Source of the DNA: an uncultured Acidobacteriota bacterium
Lineage (GTDB): Bacteria; Acidobacteriota; Terriglobia; UBA7540
DNA: 64,000 bases
Direction of reading: 5' to 3'
Assembly (NCBI GenBank): GCA_963804995.1
Contig: CAWDSK010000006.1
Location: 1,312,001 to 1,376,000, forward strand
Part shown: one piece after another, positions 42,001 through 45,000 of the stretch
Layout of the letters: each line of letters starts with the position of its first letter
Numbering within the stretch: position 1 is the first letter of the stretch
Program-made: the position numbers

Positions 42001-45000
42001 GCCCGCACCGCCTACGGCTACGAGCGGCAAAGTGAAAGCGTCATCACCCGAAAGCACCAGGAATCCCGGCTCGAACGGCGTTCAGCACTTCCATCTGCTG
42101 CACGATGCTTCCGGAGGCTTCTTTGATTCCGATGATATTGGGAATTTTCGAAAGCCGCCCGACCGTGGCCGGTTCAATGTTCGACGCCGTGCGCCCCGGC
42201 ACGTTGTAAAGAATCACAGGCAGGGAAGTCAATTCCGCGATGGCCTTGAAATGCTGGTAGAGACCTTCCTGCGTCGGTTTGTTGTAATAAGGCGCAACGG
42301 AAAGGAGAGCCTGCACGCCCAATCCTTTGACTTCGCGCGCCAAATCGCAAACCTTCTTCGTGTTGTTGCCACCCACTCCAGGAATGATGGGGACTTTCCC
42401 GCCGGCTTCTTCCAGCACGACGCGGATCACACCCAGGTATTCACCGTCCTCGAGCGTGGGGGTTTCGCCGGTCGTGCCGCAGGGGACCAGGAAATCGATT
42501 CCTTCGCGAAGCTGAAACTGTACGAGCCGCCGCAGCGCCGGTTCATCCACGGAACCGTCTTTGCGAAAAGGCGTGACGAGTGCCGTACCACATCCACGAA
42601 TTGCGAGACTCATGAGATGACCTCCAAGACCTAGCTGCCTGCTCCTAGCTCCAAGATTTCCGCGAAACTGTAGAACCCCTTCTTGCCCACCACCCAGCGT
42701 GCTGCGTAAAGCGCGCCCTCGGCAAAACCCTGGCGGCCACGCGCCGTGTGGCGAAGAACGACCGTATCCGCCTCCGAGTCAAAACCCAGCTCATGGGTGC
42801 CGGGAATGTAACCGGCGCGCACACTGGCCACAGGGATATCGCGGTCCGCAAAGTAAGGCTGGATCTGCCGAGCAACTTCGAGCGCCGTGCCCGACGGGGC
42901 GTCCTTCTTCATCTTGTGATGAGACTCGGTGAGGAAGGGATCGTACATGGGGAAGGGCGCGAAGATTTGCGCGGCCGCGCGCGCCAGGCGGTAGAACAAG
43001 TTCACACCGATGGAAAAATTGGGGGCATACACCATGCCGACGCCCGCCTGCTCAATCACCTTGCGGACCTCCGCCTGGTGCTTGTGCCAGCCGGTGGTGC
43101 CGACCACCAGGTTCACACCCAAGGCGGCGACGCGGTGAACGTTCTCAACCACGGCGTCAGACACGGTGAAATCCACGCACACGTCGATGCCTTTGAACTT
43201 TTCGCGCGTGATGCCATGGCCTTTGGCGTTGACATCAATATCCATCACGAGACGCACTTCGAAGCCGCGCTGCGGCGCAAGTTGCGCCAGCGCCTTGCCC
43301 ATTTTCCCGTAACCGAGGATGGCGAGGTTTATCATCATTCACCGCCGGGGCGGATTCACCGCAGAGGCGCGGAGGCGCTGAGAAATGCTCTTACAGGAAT
43401 TCCCTGTTGCATTGGCTATTTCCCATGAGCTTCATCGCTACTATCGTCTCCGCCTCGTTCCGAGCCCTCATCAAAGTGATTCACAATTCTTTTGATCCCG
43501 CGTCGCAGCACGGGAACATTGAAATTGATCAACAGGCCCACCGTTAAACCCGAAAGCTTCAAATACGTCAAGAGTTGGGCCTCATGGATGGGCGCCAACG
43601 CCTCAACAGATTTGAGTTCTACGACCAGCTTGTTCTCAACCACAACGTCCAAGCGATAGCCACAGTCCAGTCGGACACCCTTGTAGGCAACTGGAAGCGA
43701 CCTCTGGCGCTCAAATCCCAGACCCGCCAAACGCAACTCGTGGCACAAACATTCTTCGTAAGCTGATTCGAGCAACCCTGGACCGAGGGTTTTGTGGATC
43801 TCTATGCAGGCCCCGATGACCCGCTCGGTCAGTTGGTTGATCTGCATGGCATCCGTTCATCTTACTTCTCAGCGCCTCAGCGCCTCTGCGGTGAATCAGC
43901 CCAAGTACCCTTCCGACTTCATCAGTTCCGCATTGAGCAGGGCTGCACCCGCGGCGCCGCGGATGGTATTGTGGCTGAGCGCGATATATTTGAACTGCAG
44001 CACCGGGCACTCACGCACCCGGCCCACCACGGTTGCCATGCCATGCTCAGCGTTCACATCGAATTTCGGCTGGGGCCGGTCCCGCTCCTCGCGCACAATA
44101 ATGGGATGCTTCGGCGCGGAAGGCAAGGCCCGTTCCTGCGGCAGGGAGCGATAGGCGCGCCAAGCCTCCAGGAGGTCCGGGATAGTGGCTTTGGTCTTGA
44201 GCGACACGGAGATGGTCTCCGTGTGACCGTCTTCCACCGGCACGCGGTTGCAATGCGCGCTGACCGCAAAGTCACCCATCTTCACCTGGCCATCCACCAA
44301 CTTGCCCAGAAGCCGGCGGGTTTCGCGCTCAACCTTTTCTTCTTCGCCGCCAATATAGGGAATGACGTTGCCCAGGATGTCGAGCGTCGGCACGCCGGGA
44401 TAGCCGGCGCCAGAAACCGCCTGCATGCTGGTCATCAAAACCTTCTCGAGCCCAAAGGTATGTTCAAGCGGCGCAAGCGACATCACCAGCCCCACGGTAG
44501 TGCAATTGGGGTTGGTGACAATCATGCCCTTCCAGCCGCGCTGCTTCCGCTGCTCTCGGACCAGCGCCAGGTGGTCCGGGTTAACGTCGGAAACCAGGAG
44601 CGGCACATCCTTCTCCATGCGGTAGTTCGAGGAATTTGAGACCACCACATGGCCGGCCTGTGCGAATTCCTTCTCCACTTCCCCCGCCACCTTGGAATCA
44701 AGCGAAGAAAAGATCAAGGGCGGGGCGCCCGCGGGCTTGCACTCGTGCACGGAGAGCTCCCGCGCGTATTTGGGCAAAGCCTCGCGCAGGCGCCAATTGC
44801 ATGCATCCGCGTAAGTTTTGCCCGCCGACCTTTCTGAGGCGGCGAGCCATTTGAGTTCGAACCAGGGATGATGCTCGAGCAGGCTCACAAACCGCTGCCC
44901 GACCATTCCCGTAGCTCCCAAAATGCCAACTTCAAGCTTCTTCATGACCCTCACTAGGGCGGATTGAATCCGCCTTTACCTTTCTGCCCCCGGATTATTT

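What a model noticed while it worked through the whole genome (the two positions that open the first line are those of the whole stretch)
43350..43900. GxxExxY PD-(D/E)XK nuclease genes ride inside their own family of nonamer-repeat hairpins
All six GxxExxY (PDDEXK_3) genes are tied to long hairpins built of tandem 9-10-nt units (CGCAGAGRC, CACAGAGGG, CACCAAGAC), lying in the hairpin loop or between two hairpins, while about 50 empty hairpins are spread over the genome. The tie holds across the phylum, so this nuclease is the likely cognate of a non-REP repeat family; DUF559 and GIY-YIG genes sit likewise in other repeat families here.
Evidence so far: Flanks of g00259, g00652, g05559, g05755, g06425, g06523: two genes in a loop, three between hairpins, one with the far arm cut off by an IS. 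54 hairpins counted, most 43-116 bp; of the 8 genes in the genome with units on both sides, 5 are GxxExxY. In 13 loci from 6 other Acidobacteriota families, 12 show such units on one or both sides by eye, four with the gene in the loop. Three of 4 DUF559 genes lie at arms of one REP family and g05423 (GIY-YIG) at another.
(Added by a program. Inside this text positions count along the whole contig: contig position 1,312,001 is position 1 of the stretch shown here. "Call 12" and the like, gene names such as g00115 and contig names such as C1 are that model's own, and its searches are not shown. The text may have been shortened before it was handed on; [...] marks where a part breaks off. The agent that wrote the report below was given it as the finding of a first reader that could run no searches.)

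Follow-up and report, generated by a model that had tools for sequence, protein, structure and literature searches.

The report
Nuclease gene boxed by triple-repeat arms
A tiny nuclease-like gene is enclosed by two inward-facing arms, each made of three short repeats; this gene-plus-arms unit recurs in many bacterial phyla and in archaea, shifts place slowly and leaves gene-less copies behind, which points to a kind of selfish DNA I found no paper on.

Summary
Confirmed and wider than claimed. The GxxExxY (PF13366) gene at 43416-43847(-) lies between 37-nt inverted arms, each three tandem C-R-C-N-R-A-G units, in the asd-dapB junction. All 6 genome copies have arms. So do 75 of 80 GTDB loci from about 17 phylum-level groups including archaea; controls 1 kb away score 8 of 104, none on both sides. 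Corrections: the period is mostly 8, not 9; the genome holds about 147 arm pairs, not 54; 59-80 of them ride inside MITE ends shared with a DDE-transposase IS, so most spreading is not evidence for the nuclease. Added here: the arms behave as unit-consensus arrays, not an RNA stem (G-U 28 vs A-C 32); there is no target-site duplication; the gene is under purifying selection (dN/dS 0.04), yet 4 of 6 orthologues are damaged; one gene clade occupies 6 sites in 12 loci; an archaeon has 8 dispersed copies sharing one gene deletion. Best reading (0.5): a slow selfish cassette moved by its own nuclease. No activity is shown. The scan noted this cassette before (18 earlier findings). Nine literature searches found no description.

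The parts
43866..43902 (-). Upstream arm: three units CGCAGAG-G-CGCTGAG-G-CGCTGAG (43868-43890) with outer end ..GATTCAC, overlapping the asd stop codon
   Evidence: (I1)
43416..43847 (-). GxxExxY / PDDEXK_3 gene, 143 aa; D67, E77, K79, Q91 and Y95 intact
   Evidence: model pLDDT 91
43348..43384 (+). Downstream arm, inverted: three units at 43360-43382 with outer end GATTCAC
43337..43352 (+). Partial extra copy of the arm end. On the gene strand it reads GGCGGTGA just before the dapB start, like a ribosome-binding site (inferred)
   Evidence: D18, I8
43896..44954 (-). Host gene asd (semialdehyde dehydrogenase), upstream flank
42631..43338 (-). Host gene dapB, downstream flank
3703..3770 (.). 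Gene-less arm pair (22-nt loop) carried inside a MITE (termini 3676-3690 and 3790-3804), itself set in a GTGCCACGGGC repeat
40657..40681 (+). Solo triplet arm of the 9-nt CACAGAG type

Best explanation
The unit is a small selfish cassette: one GxxExxY nuclease gene inside an inward-facing envelope of arms, each arm 5'-AC-[C-R-C-N-R-A-G]x3. SHOWN: the linkage; a conserved PD-(D/E)XK active site; purifying selection; different sites for close gene copies; decay into gene-less pairs; no target-site duplication. INFERRED: the protein binds its own clade's units on DNA as a three-site array and nicks or cuts at the arm ends. Host recombination or repair then, rarely, copies the envelope to another gene junction or next to an existing arm pair. 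Envelopes that lost the gene can be copied in trans. Separately, many short pairs are amplified as passengers of IS-derived MITEs.
For: Linkage: an arm lies within 220 nt on at least one side in 108 of 119 loci and on both sides in 94, against 8 and 0 of 104 control windows. GTDB subset: 75 of 80, both sides 66; the 5 misses carry variant units by eye. Metagenome set: 67 of 69, both sides 56. The outer envelope faces inward in 102 of 118 loci, and 209 of 298 arms have exactly three units. Divergent protein clades keep the layout with other units, e.g. AT-rich 11-13-mers in L150-L154; a motif-free test puts 20 of 25 loci above every distal control. Label changes on the protein tree: period 20 vs 38.8+/-2.4 shuffled (34.9 when shuffled within phylum); position 2, 18 vs 30.5; position 7, 2 vs 5.9. 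Site-like rather than stem-like: in 67 cassettes the mismatches are 28 G-U vs 32 A-C, and centre bases match 131 of 201 vs 130 in a within-locus shuffle. Active site: D67 in 202, E77 in 203 and K79 in 202 of 203 sequences. dN/dS 0.04 for the intact pair G000-G006. Relocation: one gene clade lies at 6 sites in 12 loci, 4 sites among 8 genomes of one genus. Derivatives: an internally deleted gene in a loop at C6:1724.5k, a gene-less allele at asd-dapB in G002, and 8 copies with one shared deletion at unrelated sites in archaeal G100. Gene number correlates with arm density in 59 genomes: rho 0.58, or 0.38 after subtracting up to four arms per gene.
Against: No binding, cutting or movement is shown. 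There are no near-identical full copies in one genome (the other five proteins are 43-64% identical to the window protein). At asd-dapB the gene's dS (0.67) resembles its neighbours' (0.81, 0.71), so it has sat there a long time. 59-80 of 147 pairs have a DDE-based explanation. G044 has 92 arms and no gene, and G102 has 11 AT-type arms with no gene of that type found. The G100 copies share 25-30 nt of asymmetric sequence outside the arms, so another carrier may have moved them. Tree concordance is expected from linkage in cis alone, the tree is a FastTree of about 117 columns, and the genomes compared are kin. Genome size correlates with both gene number and arm density. No residue could be tied to a unit base.
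Confidence: 0.5

Rival explanations
1. Homing into hairpins. The nuclease recognises the arm family (its sequence, or its cruciform as Hjc does) and cuts gene-less pairs. The gene is then copied in by repair from a filled allele. It moves only itself; the empty pairs come from decay and are spread by other elements.
For: Filled, damaged, gene-less and empty alleles coexist at asd-dapB: of 23 genus genomes, 2 intact, 4 damaged, 1 arms only, 6 empty, 10 other. Empty alleles fall in four places on the host tree (support mostly under 80). DUF559 and GIY-YIG genes sit in other palindrome families in the same way. Fold matches include Cas4 SSO0001 (Z 7.8) and Hjc (Z 6.2). MITE carriage explains many empties.
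Against: The gene's dS is not lower than that of its flanks. Loops of empty pairs are mostly unrelated to one another, so the homology would be the arms alone. The 8 G100 copies show that a gene-less derivative was itself multiplied.
Confidence: 0.22
2. RNA-level element. The arms form a long mRNA stem that is processed like a 23S rRNA intervening sequence, or that hides the downstream ribosome-binding site, and the protein acts on that RNA.
For: The transcript folds well (z -5.5). Cassettes are mostly co-oriented with their neighbours (upstream 70 same vs 24 opposite, downstream 80 vs 17, of 118; crude ORF rule) and lie a median 14 nt after a stop codon. The arm end supplies GGTGA before dapB.
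Against: There is no G-U bias on the sense strand (28 vs 32, p 0.70) and no position-matched pairing at the unit centre, where 70 of 201 mismatch. In 20 of 111 loci the gene lies between hairpins rather than in a loop. The closest folds are mostly DNases.
Confidence: 0.12
3. Domesticated host function, as proposed for RAYT. The gene is kept because it benefits the cell, for example by resolving or maintaining these palindromes, and it moves only by rare accident.
For: Purifying selection as strong as on asd and dapB (dN/dS 0.04 vs 0.07-0.08) with similar dS. One clade keeps a shared upstream flank in 5 congeners.
Against: 4 of 6 orthologues at asd-dapB are damaged (three with stops, one lacking the invariant Tyr30). 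23 of 61 family genomes have no match. 16 of 203 cores contain stops. Host phyla are mixed on the protein tree.
Confidence: 0.1

Closest known systems
REPtron / RAYT-REPIN system and TIRtrons (bioRxiv 10.1101/2021.07.10.451892, abstract and section 4 read; PMC3733652, passages read)
   Same: A small enzyme gene flanked by inverted repeats; dispersed gene-less doublets of about 100 bp with variable spacers; long residence at a locus under purifying selection.
   Different: PD-(D/E)XK fold instead of an HUH tyrosine transposase. Arms are three tandem 8-10-nt units, not GTAG/CGTC-tagged palindromes. Up to six paralogues per genome, each with its own unit type. The gene relocates. Present in archaea, where the preprint says REPINs are undetected.
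Insertion sequences and MITEs with DDE transposases
   Same: Inward-facing ends with repeated sites and a conserved outer end (AC in 66 of 68); internally deleted derivatives.
   Different: No DDE enzyme, no target-site duplication above chance, no young identical copies. The IS with DUF772 + DDE domains in this genome is a separate carrier of the empty pairs.
ORF-bearing intervening sequences of 23S rRNA (S23p / four-helix-bundle genes); recalled, and named in earlier scan notes
   Same: A small gene in the loop of a long inverted repeat inside a transcribed unit.
   Different: Lies at protein-gene junctions; another protein family; no sign of selection for an RNA stem.
Free-standing homing endonuclease genes (recalled)
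   Same: Filled, decayed and empty alleles at one site; a nuclease gene with frequent pseudogenes.
   Different: Uses many unrelated sites; carries its own repeat arms; no lower dS than the flanks.
Cas4 / RecB-type nucleases and the Hjc resolvase (PD-(D/E)XK)
   Same: Fold and D..ExK..QxxxY motif; best structural matches SSO0001 (Z 7.8, rmsd 7.8, 108 aligned) and Hjc (Z 6.2, rmsd 3.4, 87 aligned).
   Different: All matches are weak (none reaches Z 8; no Foldseek E under 0.001), there is no sequence match in the PDB, and PF13366 is listed as 'Unknown' in PMC3424549 (one table row seen).

Membership tests
RAYT-REPIN / REPtron | HUH + catalytic tyrosine transposase | tested here: not met
   PF13366/TIGR04256 only; invariant D67, E77, K79
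RAYT-REPIN / REPtron | REP = short palindrome with a GTAG/CGTC tag | tested here: not met
   Arms are tandem C-R-C-N-R-A-G/T units with outer end AC
RAYT-REPIN / REPtron | Dispersed inverted doublets of about 100 bp with variable spacer | tested here: met
   147 pairs, loops mostly 18-90 nt
RAYT-REPIN / REPtron | Single-copy gene that stays at one locus | tested here: not met
   6 paralogues; one clade at 6 sites in 12 loci
RAYT-REPIN / REPtron | Purifying selection with vertical descent | tested here: met
   At asd-dapB dN/dS 0.04 and dS like the flanks; one locus only
DDE IS / MITE | Target-site duplication | tested here: not met
   68 gene-in-loop rows: lengths 0/1/2/3 in 43/16/8/1, null 42.5/18.3/5.8/0.7. 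A TGA repeat in some asd-dapB alleles is one case and is also needed for stop and start codons
DDE IS / MITE | DDE transposase | tested here: not met
DDE IS / MITE | Inverted ends with a conserved terminus | tested here: met
   Inward envelope in 102 of 118; outer AC in 66 of 68
23S rRNA IVS | Located in an rRNA gene | tested here: not met
   Flanks are asd and dapB; the other own loci border protein genes or an IS
23S rRNA IVS | Stem selected as RNA | tested here: not met
   G-U 28 vs A-C 32; centre matches equal the within-locus shuffle
23S rRNA IVS | Excision by RNase III | not testable with these tools
   No RNA holder listed
Homing endonuclease gene | Filled and empty alleles of one site | tested here: met
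Homing endonuclease gene | Spreads faster than its flanks | tested here: inconclusive
   dS similar to the flanks between species; no strain-level data
Homing endonuclease gene | Cuts the empty allele | not testable with these tools
   needs an assay
PD-(D/E)XK nuclease | D...(D/E)xK active site | tested here: met
   D67 202/203, E77 203/203, K79 202/203, Q91 198/203, Y95 202/203
PD-(D/E)XK nuclease | Restriction-endonuclease-like fold | tested here: met
   Top structural matches are nearly all of this fold, though each is weak (Z up to 7.8)
PD-(D/E)XK nuclease | Nuclease activity | not testable with these tools
   none

The most novel reading that the evidence does not exclude
GxxExxY proteins are the mobilising enzymes of a class of mobile element, found in bacteria and archaea, in which a stand-alone PD-(D/E)XK nuclease of about 125 aa reads a three-site arm code specific to its clade and copies arm-bounded DNA without a target-site duplication. 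Several such pairs coexist in one genome without cross-talk (six here). DUF559-REP and GIY-YIG-REP pairs may be parallel systems.
Probability: 0.4. Interest if true: 0.88.

Novelty: categorically new. Interest (0 to 1): 0.7.

Why it matters
PF13366 is a very large family (the homologue search filled its 8000-candidate limit) with no known function. This gives it a precise candidate substrate: its own flanking triplet, with natural specificity variants to swap. If it mobilises the arms, it is a mobile-element chemistry distinct from DDE, HUH, serine and tyrosine enzymes. It would also explain an abundant class of intergenic repeats in Acidobacteriota, Planctomycetota, Bacteroidota, Cyanobacteria and methanogenic or methanotrophic archaea, and it would extend REPIN-like biology to archaea.

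Tried and rejected
Target-site duplication: no excess over the null; the TGA repeat at asd-dapB is not taken as general. RNA-stem selection: not seen. 'Nonamer' as the family period: rejected. My first reading that 6 of 8 viral loci lack repeats was wrong: they carry other units. Homodimer prediction: no verdict, score 0.00, used neither for nor against. PDB sequence searches: 0 hits. Sequencing runs: no RNA holder listed, and only small shares (0.05-0.10) of DNA runs. Laying four of the six runs showed relatives' contigs that join asd to dapB without this gene, in line but from other organisms. Residue-to-base covariation: only 2-3 supported independent pairs, no usable signal, output cut. 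Phylum-wide searches around Bacteroidota and archaeal centres were not done; five named genomes were searched instead. The PF13366 control hits in Corynebacterium, Lactococcus and Sulfolobus were not examined. The DUF559 and GIY-YIG ties were not tested outside this genome. Literature searches. None describes GxxExxY genes with repeat arms. The library lacks most subscription papers, and I read no supplements; the REPtron list in the supplement of PMC3733652 could bear on this.

Full report
What is at the coordinates. A 143-aa ORF at 43416-43847(-) is a GxxExxY / PDDEXK_3 protein. It fills the junction between asd and dapB and is enclosed by 37-nt inverted arms, 43348-43384 and 43866-43902. 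Each arm is three units of CGC-N-GAG at period 8, with the outer end GATTCAC. The upstream arm overlaps the asd stop; the downstream end reads GGTGA before the dapB start.

The genome. There are six full PF13366 matches, and all have arms. The chance for a random interval to have arms on both sides is 0.00018. The six carry five unit types: CGCAGAG-8 (two genes), CACAGAG-8, CACAGAG-9, CACCAAG-8 and CGCAGAT-10. A strict detector finds 55 pairs against 0 and 0 in Markov simulations. A looser rule finds 147 pairs and 55 solo triplets, 126 of the pairs with period 8. Many pairs sit inside a larger element ending in GAAGSTGTGAARAAA: 59 of 147 have such ends on both sides and 80 on at least one. Of 65 short elements with these ends, 57 hold arms, and five 1769-bp elements share the ends. 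The one I translated encodes a DUF772 + DDE transposase (the label IS1182 is recalled). These pairs were most simply spread by that IS, not by the nuclease. A seventh, internally deleted gene lies in a loop at C6:1724.5k, and a weaker N-terminal remnant follows an arm at C6:922.4k.

Beyond the genome. Of 119 loci with enough flank, 108 have an arm within 220 nt of the gene core and 94 have one on both sides; windows 1 kb away give 8 and 0 of 104. In the GTDB set alone the numbers are 75 and 66 of 80, over about 17 phylum-level groups that I coded by hand from record titles, including three archaea. The five misses have variant units by eye. Metagenome contigs give 67 and 56 of 69. Both scans kept the 80 best matches to one query clade, so they over-represent it, and a few rows are duplicates. 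Other clades came from five whole genomes and eight viral contigs. A motif-free test puts 20 of 25 such loci above every distal control and shows different units, such as AT-rich 11-13-mers in L150-L154. Arms have three units in 209 of 298 cases. The outermost arms face inward in 102 of 118 loci, so loop, between-hairpin and mixed layouts are one envelope.

Do arms and protein belong together? Unit period and letters follow the protein tree better than shuffled labels, also when shuffled within phylum (period 20 changes vs 38.8 and 34.9). Linkage in cis alone would give this too. In the other genomes the dispersed arms mostly match the resident genes. G101 has one CGC-type gene, 35 arms nearly all of CGC type and no AT-type arm. 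G102 has CAC-type genes and 98 arms that are CAC-type in nearly all listed rows, but also 11 AT-type arms without a gene. G100 has both types of gene and of arm. Across 59 family genomes (two unpublished ones left out), gene number correlates with arm density (rho 0.58; 0.38 after subtracting up to four arms per gene), but genome size correlates with both and kin are not independent. G044 has 92 arms and no gene.

Sites or stem? In 67 gene-in-loop cassettes the two arms mismatch as G-U on the sense strand 28 times and as A-C 32 times. The unit centre mismatches in 70 of 201 units, and it matches no more often than when units are shuffled within a locus. Four of the seven positions are fixed by my pattern and say nothing. 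The arms are thus kept as copies of a consensus, C-R-C-N-R-A-G with a free centre and a half-symmetric skeleton. That is what an array of protein-binding sites looks like (inference). The RNA does fold (z -5.5), but any inverted repeat would.

History and movement. At asd-dapB, 23 genus genomes hold 2 intact cassettes, 4 damaged ones, 1 arms-only allele that keeps the start-codon context, 8 alleles with another (heptamer) repeat, 2 with other inserts, and 6 empty junctions with overlapping stop and start. Filled alleles are basal and scattered on the host tree, and empties fall in four places, with modest support. The intact pair has dN/dS 0.04 and dS 0.67, beside 0.81 and 0.71 for asd and dapB: long residence, strong selection on the protein, frequent recent loss. 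A second clade (the C2 gene; dN at most 0.10 among 11 loci, 0.14-0.17 for the twelfth) lies at six different sites in 12 loci, four of them among eight congeners, each time with its own arm type. So gene and arms move together, slowly. No target-site duplication is seen in 68 rows, and the outer end is AC in 66. In the archaeal genome G100, eight copies of a unit of about 280 nt at unrelated sites share one internal deletion of the gene (seven are 81-89% identical to the eighth), and shorter derivatives exist. A dead derivative was therefore multiplied in trans. But the copies also share 25-30 nt outside the arms, so the mover is not identified.

The protein. The model is confident (pLDDT 91). 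D67, E77, K79, Q91 and Y95 are conserved in 198-203 of 203 sequences, and 16 of 203 cores have stops. Structural matches are weak and all below Z 8, led by Cas4 SSO0001 and restriction-enzyme folds, with Hjc at Z 6.2. No PDB sequence matches.

Side claims. Three of four DUF559 genes lie in the loop of one REP family (background 1 of 3000), and one GIY-YIG gene lies between copies of another. These were not tested elsewhere.

Mechanism. I put 0.5 on a selfish cassette whose nuclease binds the arm triplets and starts rare copying by host repair; 0.22 on homing into existing pairs; 0.12 on an RNA-level role; 0.10 on a domesticated host function. The first two share the claim that the protein is the cognate of the arms.

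What is known. It works like a REPtron with its REPINs (10.1101/2021.07.10.451892: abstract and section 4 read; PMC3733652: passages), but fails membership on enzyme, repeat structure and copy number. It fails IS membership on enzyme and target duplication, and IVS membership on location and stem selection. PMC3424549 lists PF13366 as 'Unknown' (one table row). 10.1101/2021.01.26.428298 mentions GxxExxY once, beside a reverse transcriptase (passage). PMC4679880 (abstract, outline, passages) describes intergenic heptamer repeats without this gene. PMC11602168 gave one unrelated passage. PMC12085832 and PMC9756366 were seen in listings only. Nine searches found no description; supplements were not read. 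The scan itself has 18 earlier findings with these words, of which 8 were shown. They agree on the anatomy, and several favour an IVS likeness that my pairing test does not support. The tally '38 of 61' printed includes two unpublished genomes (G058, G084); no other claim rests on them.

Verdict. A real, widespread gene-repeat pairing for which I found no description, with good indirect evidence of slow mobility and no shown activity. Interest 0.7.

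Noticed in passing
window 44990-45130: A MITE-like element with termini CAGGCTGATGAAAAA / TTTTTCAACAGCCTG (45004-45018, 45109-45123) that carries a different palindromic repeat (GGCGGGTTTACCCCGCC) inside, just upstream of asd. So MITEs here carry several repeat families.
   Followed up: partly
window 41710-42613: dapA is split into two ORFs (42044-42613, matching DHDPS positions 3-177 of 289, and 41710-42057) by an apparent frameshift; this may be an assembly error.
   Followed up: no
window 3661-3804: Three nested layers: GTGCCACGGGC repeat > IS-type MITE > arm pair.
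   Followed up: yes
L007-L010, L012-L015, L020 (asd-dapB in congeners): The same junction holds GTAGACG heptamer hairpins in 8 genomes. In G015 it holds an ATCGGGTG-type octamer repeat with a small gene pair, and G023 holds a related small ORF (DUF433-like, label recalled). The junction is a hot spot for several repeat families; most of these alleles keep a CGGTGA remnant before dapB.
   Followed up: partly
G000 C1:158.2k, C6:922.4k, C6:2008.5k, C2:20.9k, C5:32.6k, C9:148.0k: CACCAAG arms, three with traces of the GxxExxY 5' end, stand beside another dispersed element with the palindrome GGGCTACCGGTAGCCC followed by TTGACA; unexplained.
   Followed up: no
L150-L154 (IMG/VR contigs): A divergent GxxExxY clade with AT-rich 11-13-nt units and, in most, an outer GCTTCGCTTGAAA end; the same envelope with unrelated sequence.
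   Followed up: partly
G000 C6:1992.7k-1993.5k (L298, L299): Two tandem GIY-YIG genes interspersed with tRNA-like repeats, whole and partial.
   Followed up: no
L183-L212 (G100): A family of about 280-nt gene-deleted units and shorter derivatives in an archaeon, with shared asymmetric sequence outside the arms; the best place to look for true element ends.
   Followed up: partly
window 14053-14373, 16289-16330, 15936-15977, 55333-55959: Heptamer arrays (TCGAAAH, AGGGAAY) of the other repeat families.
   Followed up: no
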